From positions 2,795,656 through 2,835,655 of the forward strand of contig NZ_BAABXI010000001.1 of NCBI RefSeq assembly GCF_042854785.1: a stretch of 40,000 nt of DNA. The letters run 5' to 3'. A program made the translations under genes and the position numbers. The DNA comes from Bacteroides sp. f07. GTDB lineage: Bacteria; Bacteroidota; Bacteroidia; Bacteroidales; Bacteroidaceae. Shown one piece after another: positions 7,137 through 19,246 of this stretch. The notes beneath the pieces were generated by a model that had not been told where the DNA came from, did not search any database, and saw only the letters and a program-made list of their open reading frames with translations. How positions within the stretch are numbered: position 1 is the stretch's first letter; each line of letters opens with the position of its first letter.

Positions 7137-7949
7137 TCAGAACATAGCCAGTTGCCCGTCATTTACAAATTTCACCTCAATGGCGGGTTTCTTTTCAAAG
7201 AAACAATAGGCTGCTATTGCTGACAATGCATTTGCTATGAAGTTATTAAATGAACGATGTCTGGAGTGTTCAATCTGTGCAATGTTCTTCAATTCGTCAT
7301 TGACAGTTTCAATCAGAGCTCTCTTCCTAAGCAATATCTTATCAGCGATACTCATCAAGGAGTTCTTCATATTATTCTTGACCTTAGTAATCGTCTGTAT
7401 ACCATTAAGAAAGAGGTTCTCGAACAAAGTCTGACCGATATATCCCTTGTCCGCACACAATTTTCCCTTTATGTTTTCCAGAAACTTTCCTTGTTTCAAT
7501 GGTTCCCTGTCATCCACATTGCCGGGAGTAAACATAAAATTGAGAATCTCTCCTTTATCATTGATTATCAGATGCAGCTTGAATCCGAAGAACCATCCCA
7601 TAGAGCATCTTCCACGCTCGGCAAGTCCTTCGAAAGTCTTGTGAATCAATATTCGTTGGTTACGGCAGACACGGAAGGGAGTGGAATCGACAAAACTGAT
7701 ACCGGTACAACTGCCTAGCAGAACCTTTTTGATGAAAATGGTCAGAGGGAGAAGTATTTCTTTTTCCAGTTCCACAAAACGATTATAAGACACACATCGG
7801 GGAAACATTGGTATGTGAATATCCCAATTCACCACATTTGCAAGATAGTGTAGTTCATCAGGTTGTGTGAATACAGACAAATTGTTTAAGTCAATGTCTG
7901 GATTTCCAATAATGTAGTCATCCATATATTGTTTTACTTCATCTTTCAT
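7137..7949 (-). CDS. IS982-family DDE transposase (copy probably 5'-truncated or degenerate)
   Basis: The 270-aa ORF carries family motifs VSYNRFVEL, GISFVDSTP, GWFFGFKLHLIINDKGEI, NVDDREPL, ADKGY and IETVNDELKN. The N-terminal ~55 aa are shorter and more divergent than I remember for family members. I found no terminal inverted repeats by eye. Confidence 0.8.
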   Translation of the reverse strand: MKDEVKQYMDDYIIGNPDIDLNNLSVFTQPDELHYLANVVNWDIHIPMFPRCVSYNRFVELEKEILLPLTIFIKKVLLGSCTGISFVDSTPFRVCRNQRILIHKTFEGLAERGRCSMGWFFGFKLHLIINDKGEILNFMFTPGNVDDREPLKQGKFLENIKGKLCADKGYIGQTLFENLFLNGIQTITKVKNNMKNSLMSIADKILLRKRALIETVNDELKNIAQIEHSRHRSFNNFIANALSAIAAYCFFEKKPAIEVKFVNDGQLAMF

Positions 7950-7963
7950 ATTTTATTCATATT

Positions 7964-8019
7964 GACGATAATGGGTTGCAGCTTTCCGCCATTAGGCGGA
8001 ACAAGTGCTTGTTAGTAGC
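7964..8019 (-). repeat. attC-like site R1 (distal end of array, 3' of cassette 12)
   Basis: Plus strand: GACGATAATGG GTTGCAGCTTTCCGCC ATTA GGCGGAACAAGTGC TTGTTAGTAGC. Imperfect hairpin with a CCGCC/GGCGG inner stem. The outer arm TTAGTAGC pairs with GCTACTAA in R2. Confidence 0.8.
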
Positions 8020-8020
8020 A

Positions 8021-8689
8021 TCATTCCATTTTATACATTTTTTTCTCCCAACCTTTTAATTCTTGAAGAACAGGTTTAGGATTTTGCAATATCTGATTTA
8101 GAAATTCTATAAAGTTAGGTGCTAATACTTCCGTTGCAGGTGTTTCGTAATCAAAGAGGACAATTGCACCTTCTTTATTCTCATTATCTGTCAATTTAAG
8201 AGCTATCACGCCATAATCAGAATATTGACCTATCGCAAAATACCCTTTATCAAGAATTTCCTCTTGCAGTTCCTTATTATTTTCAATTAGGATTTTATTC
8301 CATGAATGAATGGGCTTTGGATATAGACGAACATCTAAATCCCAAAACATTTCATAAAAGTGTTTATATTTCAAGTAGGTCTTGTATGAAAGCGGAAGGA
8401 TAACATTTAATTTACTTTCTAATTTGGAAATATCCTCGTCTGAAATTTGATTATCTATCACTTTCCATACATGGTCTTTGTCCGTAATAATGTTCACCAT
8501 ATAATTAGTATGTTCCGGTTGAGTGACATATATCTTAACCGATTTCCCTTGAAGTATGCTATTATCTAACGAAGCCTGCATTTCAGGTTCTATGGGTTTC
8601 TCGTAAAAAGGAACATACATAAGATATTCTCTATGTTCTTTCACAAAGCCCAAGCATTCATCTACATATTTCTTTACTACTTCTTCCAT
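8021..8689 (-). CDS. Cassette 12: SMI1/KNR4 (SUKH-type) family protein, putative immunity protein
   Basis: 222-aa ORF. ISDEDISKLESKLNVILPLSYKTYLKY and a later GYFAIGQYSDYGVIALKL...GAIVLFDYE fit the SMI1/KNR4 pattern. No signal peptide. Confidence 0.65.
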   Translation of the reverse strand: MEEVVKKYVDECLGFVKEHREYLMYVPFYEKPIEPEMQASLDNSILQGKSVKIYVTQPEHTNYMVNIITDKDHVWKVIDNQISDEDISKLESKLNVILPLSYKTYLKYKHFYEMFWDLDVRLYPKPIHSWNKILIENNKELQEEILDKGYFAIGQYSDYGVIALKLTDNENKEGAIVLFDYETPATEVLAPNFIEFLNQILQNPKPVLQELKGWEKKMYKME

Positions 8690-8710
8690 ACTATTTTGTT
8701 TTTTAAATTC

Positions 8711-8764
8711 GCTACTAATTGTTTTCAGCTAATTGTTTTCAGTATTTAGTTGTTTGTTAGACCG
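8711..8764 (-). repeat. attC-like site R2 (degenerate, with 14-bp internal duplication)
   Basis: Plus strand: GCTACTAATTGTTTTCAGCTAATTGTTTTCAGTATTTAGTTGTTTGTTAGACCG. CTAATTGTTTTCAG occurs twice in tandem. The core TTGTTA contains the stop codon of cassette 11. Confidence 0.65.
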
Positions 8765-9065
8765 TTCCTAACTTATCATGTAACCCTGTTTGTGATAATA
8801 TTGAATAGAAATTATCAAATTTCCCGATCAGTTCATTAAAAGATGCGAACTCATATCTTTCGGAGAATAAACAATTCCCTGTTTCGATACTAAGGATTTC
8901 CATAACACAAGAATTATCATCCCATAGTGTTACACGACCTAAATTAGTATCATTATCTATATCAACATACATACTATGTACATAATCCGTATTTTCATGT
9001 ATTGTGTATGTACATGACTGATTATTAATCTGTTCTTTTATATAGGAAATGAATTTTCGTATCAT
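8757..9065 (-). CDS. Cassette 11: small hypothetical protein
   Basis: 102-aa ORF, acidic, no signal peptide. The stop TAA is the core TAA of site R2. The ATG is 8 nt downstream of the 3' end of intron 1. Confidence 0.6.
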   Translation of the reverse strand: MIRKFISYIKEQINNQSCTYTIHENTDYVHSMYVDIDNDTNLGRVTLWDDNSCVMEILSIETGNCLFSERYEFASFNELIGKFDNFYSILSQTGLHDKLGTV

Positions 9066-9114
9066 ATTATTTTATCGAGTAGGTCAGCCCTCTTTCGGGG
9101 GCTTTCCCCTCTAA

Positions 9115-9148
9115 GAACCGTACTTGATAGTTTCCCATCATACGGCTC
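9115..9148 (-). ncRNA. Group II intron domain V (copy 1)
   Basis: The minus strand reads GAGCCGTATGATGGGAAACTATCAAGTACGGTTC. It is 34 nt, with the AGC triad, a 2-nt bulge and a GAAA tetraloop. Confidence 0.9.
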
Positions 9149-9186
9149 AAGCATTTCTAAATTTAATTTTCATAAATTAAACCGGC

Positions 9187-10725
9187 TCAACTTACTTTCC
9201 TAAAAGTTTTCCCATTAGTCAGTTCTCGTTTCGCACAGAGTTTCCACGTAAGATATTCCTGCCATTGCGGGTCAAACGGATTGAGTTTTGCTTTGACCTT
9301 TCTATACCTTAAAATAGGGATGTCGGCTAATTGTTCCAACCTTATCCTTTCTTTGTTATCGGCTTTCTTGAAGTCTGTGGCGAACACCCAGTTTCTCTTC
9401 CCTTCCATTTTAAAATATCTCTCCTTTACCCATCGCCAAGTTTTCTTGTCATGTCTTCTGTGTGCCCACCTTTTGAGTTGTTTCACCAGTATGGTGTCCA
9501 GATCGCTGAACGTCTTCTTGGCGGATACAAATCTAAAGTAGTTGCCCCAACCTCTGAGTACCGGATTTAGTTTCCCGATCAAGTCCTCCTGTTTAGCGAC
9601 TTTATTCTTGAAGACCACTTCATGCGTTTTCTCCACAAACCTCTTGATACTCTTCTTTGAGGGTTTAATCAATACGTTCCTTTTATATCTTCGTATGTTA
9701 TATCCCAAGAAGTCGAACCCTTTAGTGATATGGGTTATCAACGTCTTCTCCTGCGAGAGTTCCAGTCCCCTGACGGCTAAAAAGTCTTTTAAGTCCTCCC
9801 TTATCTGTTCTAGCAGTTCCTTTGTGTCCGCTGAGACAACAAAATCATCCGCATAACGTATGAGATGAACTTTGGTACGGTAACGTTTACCGTTCACGTA
9901 CCTTTCTCTGTACTTCATTAGCAACATCTTTTCCATTCCATCCAGTGTGGCGTTTGCAAGTGTTGGCGATATAATACCGCCTTGCGGTGTTCCAGCCGTT
10001 GTAGGAGTGAGCAACTTGTTAAAGATAGCTCCACATTTCAACCACTTTCTTAGTATCTGCTTGTCGATTGGTACATTATCTACAAGCCATTCATGGCTGA
10101 TATTGTCGAAGCATCCTTTGATGTCTCCCTCCAATACCCACATCGGTGGGTTAGGTTGGTGGCTGAACAATATGTGTATCGCATCTATGGCATCTGCCGT
10201 ACTCCTGTATCTTCTGAACCCGTATGAGTTCGGGTCAGCCATTGTTTCCATTACCGGTTCGAGTGCCATTAGATATAACGCCTGCATTGCCCTATCTTTC
10301 ATGGTGGGTATGCCCAGCGGGCGTTTCTTGCCGTTGCTTTTGGCAATGTACACCCTTTTCAGTGGAAGTGGCTTGTAGCCCCTCCGTCTCAACGAAGCAA
10401 CCGCTTCGAGTTTATGCGCTTGGGTAGTCCATTTGATTTGGTCTACCCAAGCGGTTCTTTTTCCTTTGTTGGAAGTAACCCGTTTTACCGCCAGCGCTTT
10501 TGCGGCAAACGAGGTAGTCAGGATACGCTGCAAGGCTTTCACCTTTGCGTATCTCTTTTCCTTTTGAGCCTTTACAATCCGAGCTTGAAGCTTCCGCACA
10601 GCGGTTTGAAGCTTGTTCCAGTCTATGCTGTTCCAAGCCCCTTTGGGTCTGCTCCTGTGTGAAGACGCACACTTTGTTTTCACTCCGTCCATTTGCTTTT
10701 CTCCATTTAAAAGTTCTTCCTTCAT
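9187..10725 (-). CDS. Group II intron reverse transcriptase/maturase (copy 1)
   Basis: RT motifs RPLGIPTMKDRAMQ, TPQGGIISP and YADDFVV. Maturase X domain LNPVLRGWGNYFRF. No HNH/En domain. The start is uncertain: ATG at 10725 or 10692. The track ORF reaches 10875 by read-through of intron RNA sequence. Confidence 0.9.
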   Translation of the reverse strand: MKEELLNGEKQMDGVKTKCASSHRSRPKGAWNSIDWNKLQTAVRKLQARIVKAQKEKRYAKVKALQRILTTSFAAKALAVKRVTSNKGKRTAWVDQIKWTTQAHKLEAVASLRRRGYKPLPLKRVYIAKSNGKKRPLGIPTMKDRAMQALYLMALEPVMETMADPNSYGFRRYRSTADAIDAIHILFSHQPNPPMWVLEGDIKGCFDNISHEWLVDNVPIDKQILRKWLKCGAIFNKLLTPTTAGTPQGGIISPTLANATLDGMEKMLLMKYRERYVNGKRYRTKVHLIRYADDFVVSADTKELLEQIREDLKDFLAVRGLELSQEKTLITHITKGFDFLGYNIRRYKRNVLIKPSKKSIKRFVEKTHEVVFKNKVAKQEDLIGKLNPVLRGWGNYFRFVSAKKTFSDLDTILVKQLKRWAHRRHDKKTWRWVKERYFKMEGKRNWVFATDFKKADNKERIRLEQLADIPILRYRKVKAKLNPFDPQWQEYLTWKLCAKRELTNGKTFRKVS

Positions 10726-11347
10726 TTTGTAAAGAAACACCAGGCAGAAGTCAGCCTGCTTTCGCAGCGGGATAATGTCACCTTGCTTGTCACGCAGGCA
10801 TTGGCTCAATCCCGTATCCTCCCTCATTACAAGGGTGGCATTCGCTTTTTCCACCATCTCATACCCGCATACCATTCGGCTTTACTTACGTTCGGCTTAC
10901 CTGTCATTCATGGCAGGAGATATACGGGCTTACCAAGTTTCGCCCTCCAACTTACGGACGGATTAGGGTCTGTCCATCTGCCGACGGTGCTTTGTCCGTG
11001 TAACCCTCACCAAAAGAAAGGTTATCCGACCGTTTACCATTTTGGTCAAGGCTCGCCAGCATCTTGAGCCTTTCATTAGTCACGACAGTTCCCGACAGTT
11101 CAATTAATTTACCCATACCGTCCAGCTTAGCCCCTTAGTCGCCTGATGCTGGCGGCAGTTGATTCCCCTCACGGTTCTGTCTTCCCTTGCGGCGGGTTCG
11201 TTGTCGAACAGCTTCACACAACGTCATTGCTGGTGATGCATGTGTTCCAAGCTACTGCTGACGGAACAGCAGGTTCAGACAGCCTGTTTTCAACCCGTGA
11301 AATGGGTGCTGAACAATTAAGAGAGGCGACTTGCTTGTCGCACCTCA

Positions 11348-11407
11348 GTTGCTAATGGGTTGCAGCTAATCGCCATTTTAAGGCGATTGAGGTGCATGTT
11401 GTGTTTA
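11348..11407 (-). repeat. attC-like site R3 (occupied by intron 1)
   Basis: Plus strand: GTTGCTAATGGGTTGCAGCTAATCGCC ATTTTA AGGCGATTGAGGTGCA TGTTGTGTTTA. The ORF-proximal core is degenerate (TTGTG instead of TTGTTA; 1-nt deletion). Confidence 0.75.
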
Positions 11408-11427
11408 TTCCTTGCAATTTTAAGAAT

Positions 11428-11766
11428 CTATTCAGTAGTAATATCAAAATCTTGTTTATTTCTCCATGCTATCCTAAGATAATCACCTCTTATTAAACCT
11501 TTATCACGGTAATATCTAACTATTTCAGAGGGCGACCAATCCTTGCCATTGGAAAATAATGTTCCGATTTCTATTAACTTTTGAAAAAGAACTGCACGCT
11601 TTTCAACATCATCAGTAGGCATAGAAATAGAATAGTATGGTTCTACTTTTTCAAATCCAAGACTGATAAGTTCATTCTTAAAATTGTCATTATTATTAGC
11701 TATCAATATATTATTTCCTGCCAATTCAATAGCAACGACTTTATCTTTTAATTTTTCATTCATCAT
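11428..11766 (-). CDS. Cassette 10: small hypothetical protein
   Basis: 112 aa from ATG 11766 (MMNEKLKDK...). The track ORF starts at a GTG at 11775 that lies inside site R4. Confidence 0.6.
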   Translation of the reverse strand: MMNEKLKDKVVAIELAGNNILIANNNDNFKNELISLGFEKVEPYYSISMPTDDVEKRAVLFQKLIEIGTLFSNGKDWSPSEIVRYYRDKGLIRGDYLRIAWRNKQDFDITTE

Positions 11767-11768
11767 AT

Positions 11769-11825
11769 TAAACACTAATGTGTTTCAGCTAACTGCGTTT
11801 AGCTGTTTAGGTGATTGTTATGTGC
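11769..11825 (-). repeat. attC-like site R4
   Basis: Plus strand: TAAACACTAATGTGTTT CAGCTAA CTGCGT TTAGCTG TTTAGGTGATTGTTATGTGC, with a perfect 7-bp stem. The cassette 9 ORF reads through the core and stops in the loop. Confidence 0.75.
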
Positions 11826-12167
11826 CTTATTGTTCTCCTCTTCTATTTTCATAAGAAATATTTCTTGCAAATCGCCACTTATTATTTTACCGTTTAGAGT
11901 TAATTCAAAAAATCCTTCTTGTTCGGCAAAGGATGATACATTATCCAGTTTGGCAAAAACATTAGATAGGGTATCTGTCATAACTAAACGCACGAAAGTT
12001 TTTAGCTCTTTTCGCTGTTTTTCATTCAACTGGCTATATAACTCTTTACTATCATTCCAAGGCTCATAACCACCTTCTATTGATGGAGTATTTAGAGTGT
12101 TGAAATATCGACTTAAGTTATCCATTATTTCTTTTTTTAATGAATTGACAAATTCTACATCATTCAT
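11799..12167 (-). CDS. Cassette 9: small hypothetical protein
   Basis: 122-aa ORF, acidic, no signal peptide. Its 3' end overlaps site R4. Confidence 0.6.
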   Translation of the reverse strand: MNDVEFVNSLKKEIMDNLSRYFNTLNTPSIEGGYEPWNDSKELYSQLNEKQRKELKTFVRLVMTDTLSNVFAKLDNVSSFAEQEGFFELTLNGKIISGDLQEIFLMKIEEENNKAHNNHLNS

Positions 12168-12186
12168 ATTTTTCCATTTTTAAGTT

Positions 12187-12244
12187 GCACATAATGTCCG
12201 GCAGATAATCGACTATTAAGGTACTTTATCTGTTTGTTAGCAAT
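12187..12244 (-). repeat. attC-like site R5
   Basis: Plus strand: GCACATAATGTCCGG CAGATAA TCGACTATTAAGGTACT TTATCTG TTTGTTAGCAAT. The core TTA (12237-12239) is the stop codon of cassette 8. Confidence 0.8.
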
Positions 12245-12551
12245 CTAATTCATTTCCGTTTAATAATTCTATATCTCCTAATGCTTTATATTCCCTGTCC
12301 AAATCTTCTTTTGTGAATAGGTAATAATTGTCCTCAAATCTTGGCATATCATAGCCTTTTACAAAAGATAAGAAAGAGAATATTTCTGCATCTATATCTA
12401 TACCTTGATTATCCTTGTTATCCAAAGCAAATAATAGATTATCAGCTTTCATCGAAATTCTATTTCTAATACCTTCTACATTATATTCTTCATTATCAGG
12501 TAACTCTTTAAGTATCTGATAGAAGTTTATTATCTGTTGTTTTACTTTCAT
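12237..12551 (-). CDS. Cassette 8: small hypothetical protein
   Basis: 104-aa ORF, acidic. The stop codon is embedded in the R5 core. Confidence 0.6.
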   Translation of the reverse strand: MKVKQQIINFYQILKELPDNEEYNVEGIRNRISMKADNLLFALDNKDNQGIDIDAEIFSFLSFVKGYDMPRFEDNYYLFTKEDLDREYKALGDIELLNGNELDC

Positions 12552-12568
12552 TCATAATTTGTTTAGTG

Positions 12569-12624
12569 ATTGCTAATGGGATGCAGCTTGCCGCTGTTAG
12601 GTGGCACAGGTGCTTGTTATAAGC
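12569..12624 (-). repeat. attC-like site R6
   Basis: Plus strand: ATTGCTAATGGGATGCAGCTTGCC GCTGTTA GGTGGCACAGGTGC TTGTTATAAGC. The stem has one bulged base and one C:C mismatch. Confidence 0.8.
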
Positions 12625-13091
12625 TAATTTTCGTATTCAATCTTGTAATCTTCATATACATTGAATACAGTTTCACAATCAGATAAAATACTTTCAAGCA
12701 AAGGTTTGACCTCACTATTCCAATCCAACTTACCCAAACCTGCACCTATTTTCGGGAGCGACACAGTTTTAATACCTCTGCTTTCGCATACTTTTTTCAA
12801 GCGTTTCAAGCCTTTATTCAGATATGTAAGTTCTGCATGATACATATCCGGTTGTGTAGCGATGTAGATTATACCCGGAGAGAAACCTTTGATTTCTCCT
12901 ATAAACATATCACCTGCTTGAAACTTGGTGTTTCGTGTGTACTTCTTAAAGAGTTTTTGGATTTCAGGGAATTGACTTGATAGCTTAAAGGCAAGCCCAG
13001 TTCCTAATCCTTCTTGTGAGCCAACAGCCACACCTTGCGCTATGTACTCATCTTTGCTTTGCAATATATCTCCCGAAATGTATTTTATCAT
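12624..13091 (-). CDS. Cassette 7: macro-domain (ADP-ribose-binding/hydrolase fold) protein
   Basis: 155-aa ORF. MIKYISGDILQSKDEYIAQGVAVGSQEGLGTGLA..., a later KTVSLPKIGAGLG and a small size fit stand-alone macrodomain proteins. Confidence 0.6.
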   Translation of the reverse strand: MIKYISGDILQSKDEYIAQGVAVGSQEGLGTGLAFKLSSQFPEIQKLFKKYTRNTKFQAGDMFIGEIKGFSPGIIYIATQPDMYHAELTYLNKGLKRLKKVCESRGIKTVSLPKIGAGLGKLDWNSEVKPLLESILSDCETVFNVYEDYKIEYEN

Positions 13092-13111
13092 ATTGTTTCC
13101 GTTTTTCTGTT

Positions 13112-13170
13112 GCTTATAATAGGTTTGTGAATAACTGACCGTTAAGGCAGTTCATTCGCTTGTTACCAAT
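13112..13170 (-). repeat. attC-like site R7 (same subfamily as R12)
   Basis: Plus strand: GCTTATAATAGGTTTGTGAATAACTGACC GTTA AGGCAGTTCATTCGC TTGTTACCAAT. In the cassette-sense strand the stem GAATGAACTG/CAGTTATTC has one extrahelical G. Confidence 0.8.
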
Positions 13171-13173
13171 ATT

Positions 13174-13461
13174 TCAATCTCCACTTACCCAAATTGTGTT
13201 TTTATCTATTATCATAGGACGCAAATTCTTAACGAACTCTATTATAATTTTCATTGATTGTTTATCCGACGTCTTTATATAATCATTTGCCAAATTAATA
13301 AGTAATTCAAGATTTTGAGGTATCAATCTTGTATCTCCATATTCATCAATACTCAATCCTGTCTTTACATGAAACTGCAAGAAGACGGGTTGTAATATTC
13401 TCAATTCAACATCATTCAAAGCGAAGTGATGATTATTCATTGTATTGCTAAAATCTAACAT
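13174..13461 (-). CDS. Cassette 6: small hypothetical protein
   Basis: 95-aa ORF with no recognisable motifs. Confidence 0.55.
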   Translation of the reverse strand: MLDFSNTMNNHHFALNDVELRILQPVFLQFHVKTGLSIDEYGDTRLIPQNLELLINLANDYIKTSDKQSMKIIIEFVKNLRPMIIDKNTIWVSGD

Positions 13462-13476
13462 TTCAATTATTTGTTT

Positions 13477-13532
13477 ATTGGTAATGGTAGCTAACCGACC
13501 TTTACGGGGAGGTTAAGCCGCTTGTTACCTGC
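13477..13532 (-). repeat. attC-like site R8
   Basis: Plus strand: ATTGGTAATGGTAGCTAACCGACC TTTAC GGGGAGGTTAAGCCGC TTGTTACCTGC. The cassette-sense stem GCTTAACC/GGTTAGC has one extrahelical T. The core TTA (13525-13527) is the stop codon of cassette 5. Confidence 0.8.
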
Positions 13533-13860
13533 TTTTTCGAGTTATTACAATATCATCAAAACTTAATAGCAAAGACTGACCGTTTGGTCTATATTCCTTC
13601 CAATCTTCAATGTCGGGACTTTCATAATCCATCATTATATGATAAAAGGAGTAAAGACCGAAATTTTCTTGAGGTAAGTCCGGCAGACTATGTATGTCAT
13701 AACATCCAACACCTTCCAATCCTTTTTCTTCAATCCGTTTTAACCATCCTAAAGCCTTATCTATTTGTTGAAGATAGGGAAGTTCCTGTTGATTGCCATG
13801 CTTCAAAGCATCAACAGTTTTTATTCGTTCTTTTTGTAATAACTCAATTATATCTTTCAT
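13525..13860 (-). CDS. Cassette 5: small hypothetical protein
   Basis: 111 aa from ATG 13860 (MKDIIELLQKE...). The track ORF extends to 13950 only because intron domains V/VI happen to be open in frame (MLEPYDGKLSSTVLRGG...). Confidence 0.6.
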   Translation of the reverse strand: MKDIIELLQKERIKTVDALKHGNQQELPYLQQIDKALGWLKRIEEKGLEGVGCYDIHSLPDLPQENFGLYSFYHIMMDYESPDIEDWKEYRPNGQSLLLSFDDIVITRKSR

Positions 13861-13910
13861 TTTATTTATCGGATAGGTCGGAGGCATTGCTGCCCCTTTC
13901 CCCCCCCTAA

Positions 13911-13944
13911 GAACCGTACTTGATAGTTTCCCATCATACGGCTC
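13911..13944 (-). ncRNA. Group II intron domain V (copy 2)
   Basis: Identical 34-nt GAGCCGTATGATGGGAAACTATCAAGTACGGTTC on the minus strand. Confidence 0.9.
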
Positions 13945-14021
13945 AAGCATTTCTAAATTTAATTCTCATAAATTAAACCGGCTCAACTCGCTTTCCTTGA
14001 GGTCTTTCTCTTAGTCAGTTC

Positions 14022-15536
14022 TCATTTAGCACGGAGTTTCCACATCATATATTCCTGCCATTCGGGGGCGAACGGGTTCATTTCTGCTTTAACTTTCCTA
14101 TACCTTAAAATAGGGATGTCGGCTAATTGTTCCAACCTTATCCTTTCTTTTTTATCGGCTTTCTTAGAGTCTGCGGCAAAGCCCCAGTTTCTACGCCCTT
14201 CCGTTTTGAAATATCTCTGTTTCACCCATCGGCGGCTTTTCTTGGGATGTCTTCTGCTTGCCCATCTCTTGAGTTGCCTTACCAAGATGGAGTCCAGATT
14301 GCTGAACGTCTTCTTGGCAGATACAAACCTAAAGTAGTTTCCCCATCCTCTCAGTACGGGATTGAGCTGCATAATCAAATCCCCCTGTTTGGCGGTCTTG
14401 TTCCCGAATATAACCTCGTGAGTCTTTTCCACAAATCTTTTCACGCTCTTCTTTGCGGGTTTTATCAATATGTTCTTTTTGTATCGGCGTATATTGTAAC
14501 CCAAAAAGTCAAAGCCCTCGGTGATATGTGTAATCAGCGTTTTCTCCTCCGATAGTTCCAGCCCCCTGACGGCTAAGAAGTGTTTCAAGTCCTCTTTGAC
14601 TTGTTCCAGCAGTTCCCTTGTGTCAGCTGATACGACAAAGTCATCCGCATAACGTACCAAATGGACTTTGGGGCGATATCGTTTTCCGTTCACGTATCTT
14701 TCCCTGTACTTCTTTAGCAACATCTTTTCCATTCCGTCCAACGTGGCGTTCGCCAACGTCGGCGATATAATGCCACCTTGCGGTGTCCCTGCCGTTGTGG
14801 GGGAGAGTAACTTGTTGAAGACCGCTCCGCATTTCAGCCACTTCTTTAATATCTGCTTGTCGATTTGTACATTATCCACAAGCCACTCGTGGCTGATGTT
14901 GTCAAAGCACCCTTTAATGTCTCCCTCCAGTACCCATTGTGGCGGGTTAGGCTGGTGGCTGAACATTATATGCAGCGCATCTATGGCGTCCGCTGTGCTT
15001 CTGTATCTTCTAAACCCGTATGAATTCGGGTCTGCGGTCGTTTCCGTCACAGGTTCGAGAGCCATCAGATATAATGCCTGCATTGCCCTGTCTTTCATGG
15101 TGGGTATGCCCAACGGGCGTTTCTTGCCATTGCTCTTGGCGATGTACACCCTTTTCAGTGGAAGTGGCTTATAGCCTCTCCGTTTTAACGAAGTTACTGC
15201 TTCGAGCTTTTGCGCTTGGGTAGTCCATTTTATATTGTCCACCCCTGCGGTTCGTTTCCCTTTATTGGAAGTGACACGTTTGACTGCCAGCGCTTTCGCA
15301 GCAAACGAGGTAGTCAAGATACGTTGCAAGGATTTTACCTTGTTGTATCTCTTTTCCTTTTGAGCCTTTACAATCCGTACCTGAAGCTTTCGCACAACAG
15401 CTTGTAGCTTGTCCCAGTCCATACTGTTCCAAGCTCCTTTCGGTCTGCCCCTGCGTGAAGATGCACACTGTGTTTTCACTTCGTTCATTTGCCTTTCTTC
15501 ATTTAAAAGTTCTTCATTCGTTTTGTAAAGAAACAC
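14022..15536 (-). CDS. Group II intron reverse transcriptase/maturase (copy 2)
   Basis: 504-aa ORF that aligns with copy 1 throughout. I counted about 60 substitutions in about 470 aligned residues by hand, with no frameshifts. YADDFVV and the X domain are intact. An alternative start is ATG 15488. Confidence 0.9.
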   Translation of the reverse strand: MFLYKTNEELLNEERQMNEVKTQCASSRRGRPKGAWNSMDWDKLQAVVRKLQVRIVKAQKEKRYNKVKSLQRILTTSFAAKALAVKRVTSNKGKRTAGVDNIKWTTQAQKLEAVTSLKRRGYKPLPLKRVYIAKSNGKKRPLGIPTMKDRAMQALYLMALEPVTETTADPNSYGFRRYRSTADAIDALHIMFSHQPNPPQWVLEGDIKGCFDNISHEWLVDNVQIDKQILKKWLKCGAVFNKLLSPTTAGTPQGGIISPTLANATLDGMEKMLLKKYRERYVNGKRYRPKVHLVRYADDFVVSADTRELLEQVKEDLKHFLAVRGLELSEEKTLITHITEGFDFLGYNIRRYKKNILIKPAKKSVKRFVEKTHEVIFGNKTAKQGDLIMQLNPVLRGWGNYFRFVSAKKTFSNLDSILVRQLKRWASRRHPKKSRRWVKQRYFKTEGRRNWGFAADSKKADKKERIRLEQLADIPILRYRKVKAEMNPFAPEWQEYMMWKLRAK

Positions 15537-16148
15537 CAGACGGAAGTCTGCCTGTTTTCACAGTGGAATGATGTCGCTTCGCTATTTTATATTATGTATG
15601 GCTACGCTCAATTCCTATCCTCCCTCATTACAAGGGTGGCGTTCGCTTTCTCCATCCTCTCATACCCGCATACCGTTCGGCTTTACTTGCGTTCGGCTTA
15701 CCTGCTGTTCATGGCAGGAGATATACGGGCTTACCAAGTTTCGCCCTCCAACTATCGCCCGGGTTAGAGCCCGTCCATCTGACGGCGGTGCTTTGTCCGT
15801 GTAACCCTCACAACAAGAAAGGTTATCCGACCGTTTACCATTTTGGTCAAGGCTCGCCAGCATCTTGAGCCTTTCATTAGTCACGACAGTTCCCGACAGT
15901 TCAATTAATTTACCCATACCGTCCAGCTTAGCCCCTTAGCCACCTGATGCTGGCGGCAGTTGATTCCCCTCGCGGTTCTATCTTCCCTTGTGGCGGGTTC
16001 GTTGTCGAACAGCTCCACACAACGTCATTGCTGGTGATGCATGTGTTCCAAGCTACTGCTGACGGAACAGTAGGTTCAGACAGCCTGTTTTCAACCCGTG
16101 AAATGGGTGCTGAACAATTAAGAGAGGCGACTTGCTTGTCGCACCATT

Positions 16149-16206
16149 GTTGCTAATGTCCAGCGGCTAACTGACTTTTCAGAAGTTAAGCCGTTTGTTA
16201 TCAGTC
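16149..16206 (-). repeat. attC-like site R9 (occupied by intron 2)
   Basis: Plus strand: GTTGCTAATGTCCAGCGGCTAACTGAC TTTTC AGAAGTTAAGCCG TTTGTTATCAGTC. The cassette-sense stem CGGCTTAAC/GTTAGCCG has one extrahelical T. Confidence 0.8.
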
Positions 16207-16212
16207 ATATTT

Positions 16213-16584
16213 TTATTCAGAGCTTTTATATTTACTATATTTCTCAATCCATCCCTCTTGAGAATATAATTCACCACACAATCCATCAGATATGTCAGCC
16301 AAAGATGTCACATCTTTTTCTGAATTAGAAATCTTCCAATCATCAATATCTTGTTCAAAAAAGAACAGAGTATTATGAATTGTGGAATCCACCATTTTAT
16401 AGACTATTTGCCTTATGAGTTCTACATCTTCATTTTTAAGGTTATTTATGGCTTCATGTAGTTTCCGGTCAGATGTACTTTTCATGTGCCCTGAAACAGT
16501 TCCTTCAAAAACAAATAAGCTATTATCCCTTACGCTTTTGACGAAATCTTTTCCAAATTGATTTAGTATTTCTTTTGTTTCCAT
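16213..16584 (-). CDS. Cassette 4: small hypothetical protein
   Basis: 123-aa ORF, acidic, no signal peptide. Confidence 0.6.
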   Translation of the reverse strand: METKEILNQFGKDFVKSVRDNSLFVFEGTVSGHMKSTSDRKLHEAINNLKNEDVELIRQIVYKMVDSTIHNTLFFFEQDIDDWKISNSEKDVTSLADISDGLCGELYSQEGWIEKYSKYKSSE

Positions 16585-16598
16585 TTTATTTCTTTTTT

Positions 16599-16654
16599 GA
16601 CTGATAATGTTTGGCAGCGTGCCGCTTTAAGCGGTGTGCTGTTTGTTAGCAACC
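16599..16654 (-). repeat. attC-like site R10
   Basis: Plus strand: GACTGATAATGTTTGG CAGCGTGCCGC TTTAA GCGGTGTGCTG TTTGTTAGCAACC. On the plus strand the stem holds three G:T wobbles. On the cassette-sense (minus) strand these same positions are A:C mismatches. The cassette 3 ORF reads through the core and stops in the loop. Confidence 0.8.
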
Positions 16655-17028
16655 TCTTTAATACTAACGTCTCCCAACACTACAATATAAGAGTTGAAGG
16701 TCATTCCATTCACTTCTTCTTCATCTCCGTCAGCCTTAACAAGACTTTTAAGAAGGCTTGAAACTGGAACTAATAATTGAGGATTGTCGGTCGATGATTT
16801 ATACTTTGTATAAATCGCATTTATTTGATGGACTGTTCCTTGTAGAGTAAGTAGTCCGTCACTTGTTTCATAATGCGCATCGTAGATATATTCTATTGTT
16901 TGGGTGATGTCAGTTAATGTTTTATTAAAAGCAAAAACATCCCATTTAACCATATCGCCTATGCTGAATGGTTGACCGCAACATTGCATCTGCCATCCTT
17001 CATAAAGTACTGTACAATATGTTTTCAT
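16627..17028 (-). CDS. Cassette 3: small hypothetical protein (EGWQMQCCGxPF motif)
   Basis: 133-aa ORF. The N-terminal Cys-rich motif YEGWQMQCCGQPFSIGDMVKW recurs, as I recall, in uncharacterised small proteins. The 3' end overlaps R10. Confidence 0.6.
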   Translation of the reverse strand: MKTYCTVLYEGWQMQCCGQPFSIGDMVKWDVFAFNKTLTDITQTIEYIYDAHYETSDGLLTLQGTVHQINAIYTKYKSSTDNPQLLVPVSSLLKSLVKADGDEEEVNGMTFNSYIVVLGDVSIKEVANKQHTA

Positions 17029-17044
17029 ATCTTTTATTTTTATT

Positions 17045-17101
17045 GGTTGCTAATGGTTTGCAGCTAATCGCTTTCAGTACGATTAGCCACATGTTATCGG
17101 C
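17045..17101 (-). repeat. attC-like site R11 (looks like an unoccupied intron target)
   Basis: Plus strand: GGTTGCTAATGGTTTGCA GCTAATCG CTTTCAGTA CGATTAGC CACATGTTATCGGC, with a perfect 8-bp inner stem. The left half is nearly identical to R3. Confidence 0.8.
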
Positions 17102-17108
17102 ATATTGA

Positions 17109-17480
17109 TTATTTAATGATAGTCAAATCTCCATCTACAAATCCCACTGCGATATGTTCTACTTTAAAAAGTTTTAAATCAGTAAGATCCTTGATTAAAT
17201 CTTTGAGGATAGGTGCAACAATTTCTAACACTTCTTCCCATTTTAGATTGCCTGAGATTTCAAAATCAGGACAACTCCTTTGAGTTGGTTCAAAACTTTC
17301 ATCACATGCCCAATCTTCATCCTTTTCATCAAACCAAGTAGAGCCGACCATTTCTATGCCATAAGGTTCATAAAGATTAAAGCTCAAAGCCACAATATCA
17401 GAAGGCAATTCTTCTGTTTTATCAATATTGACAATCCATTTTTTGATAATTTCCTTTAAATCATTCGTTTTAGTATTCAT
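17109..17480 (-). CDS. Cassette 2: small hypothetical protein
   Basis: 123-aa ORF, very acidic, no signal peptide. Confidence 0.6.
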   Translation of the reverse strand: MNTKTNDLKEIIKKWIVNIDKTEELPSDIVALSFNLYEPYGIEMVGSTWFDEKDEDWACDESFEPTQRSCPDFEISGNLKWEEVLEIVAPILKDLIKDLTDLKLFKVEHIAVGFVDGDLTIIK

Positions 17481-17514
17481 TTTTCTTCCTATTAAAAATT
17501 AAACATTTTATTAA

Positions 17515-17572
17515 GCCGATAATGGTTTGTGAATAGCTGACCATTAGGGCAGTTCATTCACTTGTTATTCGC
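17515..17572 (-). repeat. attC-like site R12 (same subfamily as R7)
   Basis: Plus strand: GCCGATAATGGTTTGTGAATAGCTGACC ATTA GGGCAGTTCATTCAC TTGTTATTCGC. Confidence 0.8.
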
Positions 17573-17575
17573 ATA

Positions 17576-18202
17576 TTATTCCTGTTGCCAATATGGGTGC
17601 AAAGCTGTTTCAGCTTTGAAATTCGGGATGTTAAATTCATAAATCCAATCAAGGCGAGTCCAAATGCCAGAGTTTTCACCGACCATAAGCATCCTTTCAT
17701 TACAAAAAACAGCTTCCATTTCATAAGGGCGACGACCAATTTCAAAGTTCATAACTATAAACCGAACAGGGGATTTCTCTTGCTTTGGAATCACAATAGA
17801 ATTGCATTGAAAAACCGATTTAGCTTGTTTACCTATGGACTTGTTGTTTTTACTCATTGCTTCAATAGCTTTCTTTGCGTTTCTTGATACCACCTTTGGA
17901 TTGTAACCTGGACCATATTGGGGGTTGATATCAGCAGGCAATAAGTTCATTTGCCTTGATAGCTTTACAAGTCCCTCGATAATCATCTCTTTTATATTCA
18001 TTGGGTTGATTTTACAAAACTCTTCCCATGCGGCAAGTTGTTTTTCTGTAGGAGAATTTTCATCCCCGACATCAAACCACGCAACAAAATCCCCGTCCAA
18101 AGAATTTATGTTAATTGAATGTTCGGTTTCATATAATCCAAGTTCTCCAATTCTCCAAAATTGGGGATTAAAACTTGATATGTTATTTATTGTTTTAGTC
18201 AT
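17576..18202 (-). CDS. Cassette 1: hypothetical protein
   Basis: 208-aa ORF, the first after the recombinase. No signal peptide and no recognisable motifs. Confidence 0.6.
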   Translation of the reverse strand: MTKTINNISSFNPQFWRIGELGLYETEHSININSLDGDFVAWFDVGDENSPTEKQLAAWEEFCKINPMNIKEMIIEGLVKLSRQMNLLPADINPQYGPGYNPKVVSRNAKKAIEAMSKNNKSIGKQAKSVFQCNSIVIPKQEKSPVRFIVMNFEIGRRPYEMEAVFCNERMLMVGENSGIWTRLDWIYEFNIPNFKAETALHPYWQQE

Positions 18203-18214
18203 TTTCTTTCCTTT

Positions 18215-18266
18215 GCGAATAACGTTATGCTAACAGCGGTCATTTAATGTTTCGCTGTTATTTTTT
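18215..18266 (-). repeat. First site of the array (attI-like position, between recombinase stop and cassette 1)
   Basis: Plus strand: GCGAATAACGTTATGC TAACAGCG GTCATTTAATGTTT CGCTGTTA TTTTTT, with a perfect 8-bp stem. In cassette sense the junction core reads ACGTTATTCGC, with G rather than A before TTA, unlike the other sites. Confidence 0.65.
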
Positions 18267-18278: not shown

Positions 18279-18719
18279 TTAAATCTCTTCTTCTAAAATA
18301 TCGTCCAACGGACTTTTAATTTTGCTTTTGTAAGTGTCTGCAATATGGACGTACATCTCTGTTGTCTTAATATTTTCATGCCCCAACAGTTCTTTTATGA
18401 TTTTCAAGTCCGTTCCTTGTTCTATTAAATGTGTAGCGAACGAATGGCGGAACAAGTGGGGATATACTCTTTTTGTTATACCTGCTTCATGGGCTATCTC
18501 TTTCAGTTTTTTGGAAACGATACTTTCAGAGAATTGTACTCCGGCTTCACGTTCAAAAAGCCACTTTTCCGACTGATATGCTATCCTATATTCTTCCAGT
18601 TTATTGATAAACGGTTTGGATAGCAGCGTATATCGGTCTTTCTTCCCCTTCCCCTTTCCCTGTCGCACATGTATCAGTGAACAGGAAATGTTTATATCAT
18701 CCGGTTTTAAATTCAGCAT
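18279..18719 (-). pseudogene. Tyrosine recombinase, C-terminal catalytic half only (XerD-like; N-terminal half missing)
   Basis: The 146-aa ORF starts just after where the box-I Arg should be (MLNLKPDDI...). It keeps GKGKKDR, HLFRHSFATHL, LLGHENIKTTEMYVH and the C-terminal IKSPLDDI. Only about 50 aa lie between KDR and GIT, so the IntI-specific extra domain is absent. The upstream sequence is closed by stops in the same frame. Confidence 0.8.
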
Positions 18720-18761
18720 TATGTTAATTCATTTTCTTATCTACTTAATGACAATATTGGG

Positions 18762-18769
18762 CAAATTTA
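18762..18769 (-). promoter_or_regulatory. Candidate -7 promoter box upstream of recombinase remnant and array
   Basis: The minus strand reads TAAATTTG (TAnnTTTG consensus) about 43 nt upstream of ATG 18719. I saw no clear -33 TTTG. Confidence 0.3.
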
Positions 18770-19050
18770 CGCTATTTCCTTCTATTCTCTATTCTGATTT
18801 TCATCACATACATTCTGATAACTCATCAATATCGGTATAACGTCCCTAAAATACGGTTTTATTTCATCACCCACAAAAAAGCTGTTAGTTTTTTCCTCTA
18901 TCCTATAAAATAGTCTCTCTTGACTGGCAATTGCACAATGATCTGTTACATAATTCATAACTATACAATGATCAGTCTCCTATTCTCAGCATTTATAAAT
19001 GCCACTATGAGATCATTGCCGTTCATCGATTTCACCTGATTGTCGAAATA

Positions 19051-19080: not shown

Positions 19081-19162
19081 AAGTGGTAAATTCAAGTAAA
19101 ACTGAACATCAGCGGTTTCACCCTGTCTTTTCAAAATATCCCTTGAGCTAAAACAAATATCA

Positions 19163-19225: not shown

Positions 19226-19246
19226 GTATTAATAGATAATCCATCA

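What the first reader, a model, noticed from the sequence alone, without database searches (positions are those of the whole stretch)
7964..18266. Integron-like array: 12 co-oriented small-ORF cassettes separated by 13 copies of a 52-60 bp imperfect-palindrome site
- **Layout.** On the minus strand the order is: recombinase remnant, R13, then 12 ORFs of 95-222 aa, each followed by a site (R12 down to R1).
- **Site consensus (cassette sense).** N8-TAAC-AA(R), stem arm of about 10-14 nt, short loop (often containing TAA), second stem arm, (Y)CA-TTA-N8.
- **Packing is very tight.** Every stop codon lies within about 20 nt of its site. Three cassettes (5, 8, 11) use the core TAA itself as the stop. 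Two (3, 9) read through the core and stop in the hairpin loop.
- **No internal promoters seen.** I found no TAnnTTTG box between cassettes, so expression probably depends on an upstream promoter, as with an integron Pc.
- **Composition.** The cassettes are visibly more AT-rich than the flanks.
- **Differences from canonical integrons.** The core is TAAC/ATTA rather than RYYYAAC/GTTRRRY. The recombinase is XerD-like, co-oriented with the cassettes, and lacks the IntI-specific domain.
- **Possible precedent.** From memory, recombinase-associated orphan-immunity arrays (rAID-1) with conserved intergenic sequences have been reported in Bacteroidales. I cannot check whether this site architecture has been described.
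Basis: partly seen in the sequence, partly recalled or inferred. Interest (0 to 1): 0.9.

Follow-up and report, generated by a model that had tools for sequence, protein, structure and literature searches.

The report
Decayed rAID-1 immunity-gene cassette array
This is a Bacteroides "rAID-1" locus, an already published integron-like array of orphan toxin-immunity gene cassettes separated by small hairpin recombination sites; this copy has a crippled recombinase, two group II introns and an IS-truncated end.

Summary
On the minus strand, 7964-18266 carries a tyrosine-recombinase remnant, one attI-like site, and 12 low-GC single-ORF cassettes each ending in a 44-53-nt imperfect palindrome (TAACA...stem-loop...CATTA).

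**Sites.** They are far above chance and confined to the array. The stem covaries across 126 distinct sites from 32 loci. The strand complementary to the ORFs folds better.

**Modularity.** In other strains and metagenomes the same cassettes sit among different neighbours, with homology starting and ending exactly at the TTA core. One cassette is inserted precisely at ...TAACGTTA| just after the recombinase gene.

[quoted passage not shown] 2019), found in over half of Bacteroidales genomes.

- Two 2.27-kb group IIB introns sit exactly 9 nt after the TTA core. Their EBS2 loop pairs with the site core CATTAG.
- The recombinase is only residues 226-362 of a roughly 367-aa enzyme and lacks catalytic Arg-I.
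- The far end of the array is cut by an IS982-type fragment.

**Open.** Folded single-strand recombination is inferred, not shown.

The parts
18279..18719 (-). Tyrosine recombinase remnant, 146 aa. It corresponds to residues 226-362 of a 367-aa rAID integrase. The N-terminal extension, the SAM-like core-binding domain and catalytic Arg-I are missing.
   Evidence: Pfam PF00589 profile positions 42-170/172. 54% identity to the B. ovatus rAID integrase over residues 226-362. A 290-bp deletion relative to L011 removes AGLRISELLNL.
18762..18769 (-). Candidate Bacteroides -7 promoter box, TAAATTTG, 43 nt upstream of the remnant's ATG. It is a possible driver of the whole co-oriented array. This is a consensus match only.
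It consists of the hairpin AACAGCG-N14-CGCTGTT, then GCA, then the palindrome TAACGTTA. Cassettes are inserted immediately after the final TTA (18220|18219).
   Evidence: The sequence is conserved after the recombinase stop codon in L011, L092, L093 and L094. The empty versus filled site comparison is window/L005 versus L001. The first-position TriTu cassette junction is in L011.
17520..18219 (-). Cassette 1: ORF 17576-18202 (208 aa, no family hit) plus site R12 (17520-17567).
17051..17519 (-). Cassette 2: ORF 17109-17480 (123 aa) plus site R11 (17051-17096).
16605..17050 (-). Cassette 3: ORF 16627-17028 (133 aa, DUF6578) plus site R10 (16605-16648). The stop codon lies in the hairpin loop.
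16154..16604 (-). Cassette 4: ORF 16213-16584 (123 aa, weak DUF6547 hit) plus site R9 (16154-16200).
13868..16144 (-). Group II intron 2, 2277 nt, IIB/chloroplast-like type, with an intact RT-maturase ORF (14022-15536). It is inserted 9 nt 3' of the TTA of R9 and is co-oriented with the cassettes.
   Evidence: Rfam RF02012 and RF00029. Pfam RVT_N/RVT_1/GIIM. Best solved relative is 6me0, E 5e-159. EBS/IBS pairing.
13482..13867 (-). Cassette 5 proper: ORF 13525-13860 (111 aa) plus site R8 (13482-13527). The core TAA is the stop codon. The cassette formally begins at 16153, with intron 2 lying in its leader.
13117..13481 (-). Cassette 6: ORF 13174-13461 (95 aa) plus site R7 (13117-13165). A 95%-identical copy sits at the first array position in other strains.
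12574..13116 (-). Cassette 7: ORF 12624-13091 (155 aa, Macro domain) plus site R6 (12574-12619). The same cassette occurs in metagenome locus L170, end to end, with different neighbours.
12192..12573 (-). Cassette 8: ORF 12237-12551 (104 aa) plus site R5 (12192-12239). The core TAA is the stop codon.
11776..12191 (-). Cassette 9: ORF 11799-12167 (122 aa) plus site R4 (11776-11820). The ORF reads 19 nt into the site.
11353..11775 (-). Cassette 10: ORF 11428-11766 (about 112 aa) plus site R3 (11353-11405, with a degenerate 5' core AACACAAC).
9074..11343 (-). Group II intron 1, 2270 nt, about 86% identical to intron 2, with RT-maturase ORF 9187-10875. It is inserted 9 nt 3' of the TTA of R3.
8716..9073 (-). 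Cassette 11 proper: ORF 8757-9065 (102 aa, TriTu immunity protein) plus site R2 (8716-8759, barely folds). The same cassette sits at the first position in L011, with homology ending exactly at 8716.
7969..8715 (-). Cassette 12: ORF 8021-8689 (222 aa, SUKH-1/SMI1_KNR4 immunity family) plus site R1 (7969-8014).
7137..7968 (-). Truncated cassette 13, fused in frame from about 7715 downward to an IS982-type DDE transposase fragment. This is the IS-truncated distal end of the array.
   Evidence: Pfam DDE_Tnp_1_3 from residue 79 of ORF 7137-7949.

Best explanation
The locus is a chromosomal rAID-1 array: an integron-like platform that stores promoterless, single-gene cassettes encoding orphan immunity proteins against interbacterial toxins.

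**Proposed mechanism**
- Each cassette runs from the base after one TTA core to the next TTA. It ends in an attC-like site: TAACA, then a covarying imperfect stem-loop, then a 5-6-nt spacer, then CATTA.
- A XerD/IntI-related tyrosine recombinase excises cassettes by site x site recombination.
- The same enzyme re-inserts them at an attI-like site (hairpin-GCA-TAACGTTA|) directly downstream of its own gene.
- Strand exchange occurs at or within the TTA.
- The sites most likely act as folded single strands of the strand complementary to the ORFs.
- Cassettes are probably read from a promoter upstream of the recombinase.

**State of this copy**
- It is decayed. Its recombinase is a catalytically dead remnant, so any movement must depend on a recombinase supplied in trans.
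- Two group IIB introns have homed into it by pairing their EBS2 loop with the conserved CATTAG core of the site.
- An IS fragment has cut off the distal end.

**Shown**
- The site family, its restriction to arrays, and the stem covariation.
- Cassette modularity with breakpoints at TTA.
- Insertion at the attI-like site.
- The recombinase truncation.
- Intron identity and position.

**Inferred**
- Catalysis by this recombinase family.
- A single-stranded, bottom-strand substrate.
- Operon-type expression.
- The immunity function of the 7 cassettes that have no family hit.
For: **Sites**
- Ten pattern hits against 1.66 expected, and none outside the array.
- The nhmmer profile found no hit in about 1.2 Mb of flanks and unrelated loci.
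- The covariance model finds 140 sites (126 distinct) in 32 loci. All are co-oriented within a locus.
- Core length from TAAC to TTA is 44-52 nt.

**Structure**
- The covariation score is 0.268, against 0.136 +/- 0.008 in shuffles (0 of 500 reach it). Slid controls give 0.015-0.087, except +1.
- Pair 18-68 is AU 87 / GC 29. Pair 20-66 is CG 87 / AU 36.
- 98% of 120 sites fold better than their shuffles, with mean z -2.4.

**Strand**
- The bottom strand folds at -7.87 kcal/mol and the top strand at -6.12 (p 5e-15).
- In the outer stem, top-strand A.C mismatches number 81 against 11 G.T.
- The difference holds after a composition control, z -3.5 against -2.7.

**Modularity**
- L001 and others carry an extra cassette inserted at ...GCATAACGTTA|CCAAT...CCATTA|TTCGC. 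The empty site in the window is ...GTTA|TTCGC.
- L011 has the TriTu cassette at the first position, with homology ending at the A of TTA.
- Ten cassette pairs, 88-100% identical, align end to end between arrays. All 13 evaluable neighbours are different cassettes.

**attI-like site.** It is conserved in five loci.

**Recombinase**
- The best NCBIfam hits are integron integrase TIGR02249 (189.7 bits, below cutoff, two stretches) and archaeal XerA.
- The PDB hits XerA and IntI4 agree.

**Cassette content.** TriTu, SUKH, Macro, DUF6578.

**System identity.** Ross et al. 2019, and the B. ovatus reference-type array with hits from the same site model.
Against: - No recombination event was observed directly. 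Strain differences could in principle arise by homologous exchange of array segments.
- The local recombinase is inactive. Even so, strains sharing the same truncated allele differ by one first-position cassette. This needs an unidentified enzyme acting in trans, or allelic replacement.
- Three of the 13 sites fold no better than shuffles.
- Inner-stem pairing is poorly captured by fixed alignment columns.
- The alignment used for the covariation count was fitted to the model's structure, which biases it toward that structure.
- Only 5 of 12 cassettes have a family hit, and only 3 of those are recognised immunity-type families.
- Genome-wide absence of the site outside arrays was tested only on flanks and sampled loci, not on a complete genome.
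Confidence: 0.85

Rival explanations
1. The array and recombinase are as described, but the sites act as ordinary double-stranded core sites (dif/Xer-like, with two inverted binding arms), not as folded single strands.
For: The recombinase is about as close to XerA, XerC and XerD as to IntI. It lacks the IntI insertion that contacts the extrahelical bases of folded attC. The attI-like TAACGTTA is a perfect double-stranded palindrome.
Against: - The arm sequences differ between sites while staying complementary. A protein reading duplex arms would conserve sequence, not pairing.
- Mismatches are almost all A.C on the top strand, which are G.T wobbles on the bottom strand (81 against 11). The bottom strand is also more stable. 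Duplex DNA would show no such asymmetry.
- The crossover lies at one end of a 46-nt palindrome, not around a central 6-8-bp spacer.
Confidence: 0.12
2. The palindromes are RNA-level or generic elements: intercistronic mRNA hairpins, terminators, or REP-like repeats. The gene order differences between strains arise by homologous recombination.
For: The sites sit between every pair of genes in a single-orientation cluster. They fold and overlap stop codons.
Against: - No T-tract follows them, and none was picked up by the terminator scan.
- The sense (mRNA) strand is the worse folder.
- No copies were found in flanks or unrelated loci.
- Cassette junctions share only TTA between the attI-like and attC-like partners (GCATAACGTTA against CAAACCATTA). 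That is too little homology for homologous recombination.
Confidence: 0.03

Closest known systems
rAID-1, recombinase-associated acquired interbacterial defence (Ross et al. 2019, Nature; bioRxiv 10.1101/471110)
   Same: - A XerD-family recombinase gene lies at the 5' end.
- Short genes are co-oriented, with low GC (0.33 here; the criterion is <= 0.41).
- Immunity families are present (SUKH, TriTu, Macro).
- The intergenic motifs are repeated.
- The host is a Bacteroides chromosome.
- The site model from this window also hits a typical B. ovatus array.
   Different: - The recombinase is a 146-aa remnant that would fail the published search criterion.
- Two group II introns and an IS fragment are present.
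- The held papers give motifs only. They describe no folding, crossover point or attI-like site.
Integrons, especially sedentary chromosomal integrons and CALIN arrays
   Same: - Cassettes are promoterless, with one ORF plus one imperfect-palindrome site.
- Structure is conserved more than sequence.
- R''-like TAAC and R'-like TTA boxes are separated from the stem by an asymmetric unpaired spacer.
- The bottom strand is favoured.
- Insertion occurs at a dedicated site next to the recombinase gene.
- The crossover lies in the (G/A)|TTA core.
- The recombinase's best-scoring NCBIfam hit is integron integrase.
   Different: - There is no IntI-specific insertion.
- The recombinase has a roughly 95-aa N-terminal extension.
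- The recombinase is co-oriented with the cassettes, not divergent.
- The 3' core is ATTAGCA rather than GTTRRRY in 116 of 120 sites.
- The sites are shorter (44-52 nt) and uniform in length.
Group IIC-attC introns of integrons (Leon and Roy; PMC3001079), and group IIB introns reported in integrons (PMC7923331)
   Same: Mobile group II introns have specialised in homing into the recombination sites of a cassette array.
   Different: - The introns here are IIB-like. The RT is closest to T.el4h, and both EBS1 and EBS2 are present.
- The target is recognised by EBS2 pairing with the site core CATTAG, not by a stem-loop.
- They insert in the sense strand and are co-oriented with the cassettes, so they can splice out of the array transcript.
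- IIC-attC introns insert in the bottom strand, opposite to transcription.
Xer/dif and archaeal XerA recombinases
   Same: XerA is the closest solved structure by sequence (5hxy, E 1e-37). The catalytic motifs HxxR and Y are shared.
   Different: Xer enzymes resolve chromosome dimers at a single 28-bp double-stranded dif site. They have no cassette array.

Membership tests
rAID-1 (criteria of Ross et al. 2019) | [quoted passage not shown] | tested here: inconclusive
   The reference sequence is not held. The remnant is 54% identical over 140 aa to the 367-aa integrase of a typical B. ovatus rAID array. The allele at the same locus in L011 is 53-54% identical over 238 aa. At 146 aa the remnant cannot reach E 1e-100.
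rAID-1 (criteria of Ross et al. 2019) | Two or more co-directional downstream genes with GC <= 41%. | tested here: met
   Twelve ORFs, all on the minus strand, with GC 0.276-0.374 (pooled 0.329); the flanks have 0.43-0.45.
rAID-1 (criteria of Ross et al. 2019) | [quoted passage not shown] | tested here: met
   Model R1 finds 140 sites in 32 loci, plus sites in B. ovatus and P. massiliensis records. The post-stop motif is conserved in five loci.
rAID-1 (criteria of Ross et al. 2019) | The genes encode orphan immunity proteins. | tested here: inconclusive
   TriTu, SUKH-1/SMI1_KNR4 and Macro are recognised. DUF6578 and DUF6547 have unknown function. Seven ORFs have no family hit. No toxin neutralisation was tested.
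Integron (IntI + attI + attC; IntegronFinder definition, PMC4889954) | An integrase carrying the IntI-specific insertion near patch III (intI_Cterm). | tested here: not met
   TIGR02249 and PRK15417 match in two stretches and fall below cutoff. The stretches printed are query 3-136 to integron-integrase profile positions 44-176 and query 136-231 to IntI4 2a3v residues 226-318. This implies that about 45-50 IntI residues have no counterpart.
Integron (IntI + attI + attC; IntegronFinder definition, PMC4889954) | attC sites with RYYYAAC ... GTTRRRY boxes. | tested here: not met
   The 5' box TAAC fits. The 3' box is CATTA(G/T)C, with A instead of G in 116 of 120 sites. The attC covariance model itself was not available.
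Integron (IntI + attI + attC; IntegronFinder definition, PMC4889954) | Imperfect palindromes conserved in structure, with bottom-strand folding. | tested here: met
   Covariation; strand asymmetry. This is computational evidence only.
Integron (IntI + attI + attC; IntegronFinder definition, PMC4889954) | Cassettes move as units and insert at a site next to the integrase gene. | tested here: met
Integron (IntI + attI + attC; IntegronFinder definition, PMC4889954) | intI is transcribed divergently from the cassettes. | tested here: not met
   The recombinase and the cassettes are on the same strand.
Group IIC-attC introns | A class C ribozyme and IEP, no EBS2, insertion in the bottom strand opposite to cassette transcription. 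| tested here: not met
   The IEP is closest to the IIB T.el4h maturase. An EBS2/IBS2 pairing is present and covaries in a relative. The introns are co-oriented with the cassettes.
Rho-independent terminators / REP elements | A GC-rich stem followed by a T-run, or scattered genome-wide copies. | tested here: not met
   No site appears in the terminator scan. There are no copies outside arrays in the sequence examined.

The most novel reading that the evidence does not exclude
The most novel reading not excluded has three parts.
1. rAID sites are true attC-type substrates, recombined as folded bottom-strand hairpins with the crossover at (A/G)|TTA. The enzyme is a sister lineage of integron integrases that lacks the IntI-specific I2 insertion.
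2. Hairpin-based cassette capture would then be broader and older than integrons proper. It may extend to Flavobacteriia, where 45-49%-identical recombinases sit next to co-oriented ORFs separated by about 128-nt attC-like palindromes.
3. The system has its own dedicated group IIB introns, which home by pairing EBS2 with the site cores (CATTAG here, CTAAC in locus L183).
Probability: 0.45. Interest if true: 0.7.

Novelty: new member of a known kind. Interest (0 to 1): 0.35.

Why it matters
**What is known.** rAID arrays are present in over half of sequenced Bacteroidales genomes. They were detected in 551 of 553 human gut metagenome samples. They shape who survives type VI secretion attacks.

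**What this locus and its relatives add.**
- They give concrete, testable predictions. The cassette unit runs from TTA to TTA. The insertion point is TAACGTTA| just after the recombinase stop codon. The folded strand is the complement of the ORFs.
- An IntI-like enzyme without the I2 domain may suffice for hairpin-site recombination.
- The locus shows how such arrays decay through recombinase truncation, intron invasion, intron-intron deletion and IS truncation.

The existence and function of the system itself are not new.

Tried and rejected
- **Genome-contig scan.** It returned only distant relatives (<= 54% identity) and no Bacteroides genome. The site profile has no hits in these loci. They served as negative controls and gave the Flavobacteriaceae lead.
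- **RNAalifold on the MAFFT alignment of the 12 sites.** It predicted no structure, because bulges shift the register. I supplied a hand-derived structure instead.
- **Metagenome 15-mer scan.** Ninety-one of the 120 hits were chance matches in non-gut samples with no full site.
- **P0120.** I hoped it was a B. fragilis rAID recombinase. It is an unrelated locus in a gliding Bacteroidota genome.
- **IIC-attC idea.** I first thought the introns were IIC-attC-like, recognising the hairpin. The RT's closest relative and the EBS2 pairing reject this.
- **Deletion of cassettes 5-6 in L001.** I first read it as site x site excision, but the junction does not fit. It fits homologous recombination between an intron at R9 and a former intron 9 nt after the TTA of R7. 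The target CAACA there is perfectly complementary to EBS1 (the EBS1 loop was identified).
- **The 1.1-kb stretch upstream of the remnant.** It holds a 93-nt inverted repeat and 22-bp repeats. It has no match outside this chromosomal locus and remains unexplained.


Full report
**1. What is there**

On the minus strand, the window between 7964 and 18266 holds the following, in order:
- a 146-aa tyrosine-recombinase fragment (18279-18719);
- a special site (18215-18262);
- twelve co-oriented ORFs of 95-222 aa, each followed by a short imperfect palindrome.

- Stop codons lie from 25 nt upstream to 19 nt downstream of the T of TAAC.
- Cassettes 5, 8 and 11 use the core TAA as their stop codon.
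- Cassettes 3 and 9 read 19 nt into the site.
- The gap from TTA to the next ATG is 9-39 nt.
- Cassette ORFs have GC 0.33, against 0.43-0.45 in the flanks.

The 141-aa ORF begins inside an intron, so cassette 5 really starts at 13860.

**2. The sites are real and specific**

- TAACAN{33,43}CATTA matches 10 times in the window, against 1.66 +/- 1.3 in shuffles.
- Nine of those matches are array sites on the minus strand. None lies outside the array.
- An HMM of the 12 sites found nothing at E <= 1 outside close-relative arrays. The search covered the window's flanks, the upstream flanks of related loci, and 80 unrelated recombinase loci, about 1.2 Mb in all.
- None of the sites is followed by a T-run.
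- A covariance model built from the 12 sites with a hand-derived stem recovered 140 sites, 126 of them distinct, in 32 loci. The loci came from other strains and from a metagenome scan.
- Within each locus all sites are co-oriented and spaced 0.3-1.2 kb apart, with up to 16 in 12 kb.
- TAACA is present in 117 of 120 sites and CATTA in 116 of 120. The distance from TAAC to TTA is 44-52 nt.

**3. The sites are hairpins, and the favoured strand is the complement of the ORFs**

- As single-stranded DNA, 9 of the 13 window sites fold with z <= -1.9. R2, R6 and R8 do not.
- Over 120 distinct sites the mean z is -2.4, and 98% fold better than their shuffles.
- The six outer stem pairs covary. Pair 18-68 is A-T in 87 sites and G-C in 29. 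Pair 20-66 is C-G in 87 and A-T in 36.
- The covariation score is 0.268, against 0.136 +/- 0.008 in shuffles (0 of 500 reach it). Slid controls give 0.015-0.087, except the +1 slide, which reflects a frequent one-base bulge.
- One caveat applies. The alignment was fitted to the model, which favours the structure.
- Non-Watson-Crick cells in the outer stem are almost all A.C on the ORF strand: 81, against 11 G.T. These are G.T wobbles on the complementary strand.
- Accordingly the complementary (bottom) strand is more stable, at -7.87 against -6.12 kcal/mol (p 5e-15). This holds relative to each strand's own shuffles, z -3.5 against -2.7.
- This argues against an mRNA-level role and against a purely duplex site. 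It parallels integron attC sites, which recombine as folded bottom strands (established knowledge; PMC2727003 and PMC3458562 were listed).

**4. Cassettes are modular and the breakpoint is the TTA core**

Contigs carrying the identical 146-aa remnant come in two forms.

| Form | Junction sequence |
|---|---|
| Window and L005 (empty site) | ...GCATAACGTTA\|TTCGCAAAGG (cassette 1) |
| L001, L002, L004, L006-L010 (filled site) | ...GCATAACGTTA\|CCAATAAAC...[95-aa ORF]...CAAACCATTA\|TTCGCAAAGG |

- The extra unit in the second form is 95% identical to window cassette 6. In the window, cassette 6 is bounded by ...CCATTA|CCAAT and ...CTATTA|TAAGC.
- L011 is the same chromosomal locus (flank 99.2% identical) but has different cassettes. 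Its first cassette is the window's TriTu cassette 11. Homology begins right after GTTA| and ends at window 8716, the A of TTA.
- I cut all arrays at TTA and compared the pieces. Ten cassette pairs from different arrays, 88-100% identical, align from first base to last. In all 13 evaluable cases the neighbouring cassette is unrelated.
- The two partners at the first-position junction share only TTA. Homologous recombination is therefore an unlikely cause, and site-specific exchange at or within TTA is the natural reading.

**5. An attI-like site**

- The sequence after the recombinase stop codon is conserved in five loci with otherwise different cassettes.
- Its form is TACTTAGRAAAAATAACAGCS-loop-SGCTGWTAGCATAACRTTA|. 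Sequences diverge immediately after the final TTA.
- It corresponds to the motif Ross et al. reported 3' of the recombinase gene.

**6. The recombinase**

- A complete enzyme is 367 aa. It has an N-terminal extension of about 95 aa with no Pfam match, a SAM-like core-binding domain, and a catalytic domain.
- The window fragment equals residues 226-362 of that enzyme.
- Relative to L011 it has a clean 290-bp deletion that removes the start codon and Arg-I (AGLRISELLNL).
- L011's own 238-aa ORF already lacks about 130 N-terminal residues.
- The enzyme here is therefore dead.
- Strains with the same dead allele still differ by a first-position cassette. That implies either a recombinase acting in trans or allelic replacement.
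- By profile, the family scores best with integron integrase TIGR02249 (189.7 bits, below the 265 cutoff, in two stretches) and archaeal XerA (189 bits). XerC and XerD score lower.
- In the PDB the order is XerA, then IntI4, then XerD. The IntI4 match is split where IntI carries its specific insertion.
- The family is thus IntI-like but lacks the defining IntI domain.

**7. The introns**

- Both have Rfam D1-D4 and D5-D6 matches and intact RT-maturase ORFs without an endonuclease domain.
- They are about 86% identical to each other.
- The RT is closest to the group IIB T.el4h maturase, 6me0, E 5e-159. They are therefore not IIC-attC introns.
- Both start GTGCGAC exactly 9 nt after the TTA core: TTA-GCAACAATG| and TTA-GCAACTGAG|.
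- A loop at intron positions 265-270 (CTAATG) is complementary to exon positions -14..-9 (CATTAG), which is the site core.
- A second loop at 329-334 differs between the two introns (TTGTTG and TTTTGG). The differences keep pairing with their different -5..-1 exon bases (CAATG and CUGAG).
- The loop assignments are supported by a 64%-identical relative in L183. Its equivalent loops (GTTAG and CTCGAC) pair with CTAAC and GTCGAG of its own 5' exon. That intron sits inside a site and uses the other core, TAAC.
- L001 lacks cassettes 5-6. Its junction fits recombination between two intron copies rather than site x site excision.
- The introns are co-oriented with the cassettes. Integron IIC-attC introns are not.

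**8. Cassette content and context**

- Pfam recognises TriTu immunity protein, SUKH-1/SMI1_KNR4, a Macro domain, DUF6578 and, weakly, DUF6547. Seven ORFs have no hit.
- The distal end is a truncated thirteenth cassette fused to an IS982-type transposase fragment.
- The locus lies in a chromosome between polysaccharide-utilisation and glycosyltransferase genes on one side and a TonB-type receptor gene on the other.
- The exact remnant protein is annotated in Bacteroides sp. f07.
- The only Bacteroides-type -7 box near the array start is TAAATTTG, 43 nt upstream of the remnant's ATG.

**9. Comparison with what is known**

- Ross et al. 2019 defined rAID-1 by exactly this architecture. [quoted passage not shown]
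- A 2025 preprint still calls the biogenesis mechanism unknown.
- My searches of the held literature found no description of site folding, the crossover point, strand bias or intron homing for rAID. That library is incomplete.
- The system fails the formal integron definition on four points: no IntI insertion, ATTAGCA rather than GTTRRRY, a co-oriented recombinase, and short uniform sites.
- It nevertheless works like an integron in every respect that could be tested here.

**10. Verdict**

The finding is real and correctly interpreted, but it belongs to a published and very common system. The added value lies in the site-level anatomy, the evidence for the crossover point, and the intron association. 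Interest is moderate to low for the finding as stated. It would be higher if the hairpin, bottom-strand mechanism with an I2-less enzyme were confirmed.

Noticed in passing
window 18720-19840 (inverted-repeat arms 19030-19122 and 19353-19445; tandem repeats 19249-19322): The 1.1-kb stretch that replaces the recombinase N-terminus holds a 93-nt inverted repeat (71% complementary). The repeat flanks 230 nt that contain three 22-bp tandem repeats (ATCTATATA...). The stretch is found only at this chromosomal locus among all loci fetched. Its function is unknown.
   Followed up: partly
L017 12871-12998 and 13798-13925; L023 13109-13234 and 15326-15455: In two Flavobacteriaceae genomes a recombinase 45-49% identical to the rAID enzyme, also without the IntI insertion, is followed by co-oriented ORFs. 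The ORFs are separated by about 128-nt imperfect palindromes, CAACA...(5-6-nt bulge)...CGTTGT. These look like classical attC sites and like a long version of the rAID site.
   Followed up: partly
L183 380-2900: A 64%-identical group II intron is inserted inside a rAID-type site (TAACAAGGTCGAG|intron|ATAACAGC...CCATTA). Its EBS2-equivalent loop GTTAG pairs with the 5' core CTAAC. A second intron lineage therefore targets these sites through the other core.
   Followed up: partly
L001 15130-15260 versus window 13108-13861: Strain GCA_011075405 lacks cassettes 5 and 6. The junction (intron 3' end followed by GAAAAACGG) fits homologous recombination between an intron at R9 and a former intron 9 nt after the TTA of R7. 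It does not fit site x site excision.
   Followed up: yes
L094 1-12339: A rAID recombinase (frameshifted into 177 + 192 aa) with Imm-NTF2 and Imm26 cassettes lies next to RteC, topoisomerase, DUF1896 and DUF3945 genes. That is a CTnDOT-type conjugative element context, so some arrays are carried on mobile elements.
   Followed up: no
window 7137-7949: The ORF fuses the N-terminus of a thirteenth cassette to an IS982-type DDE transposase fragment (Pfam match from residue 79). The array's far end was lost to an IS event.
   Followed up: partly
Plasmid records (Acinetobacter spp., Chondrinema): About 45%-identical recombinases are annotated as TnpF or lie under 'IS91 family transposase' features on Acinetobacter and other plasmids. 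The wider protein family is not confined to cassette arrays.
   Followed up: no
L093 4753-4952: Two sites lie only 137 nt apart, forming a mini 'cassette' with no ORF. It is 99% identical to the end of the preceding cassette. This looks like a partial duplication or an empty cassette.
   Followed up: no
window, whole: GC skew is negative on the + strand throughout, and nearly all genes are on the minus strand. If this reflects replication direction, the ORF strand of the cassettes is the lagging-strand template. The better-folding bottom strand would then be on the leading-strand template, the arrangement I recall (not checked here) as reported for sedentary chromosomal integrons. This is a weak inference from 40 kb.
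   Followed up: no
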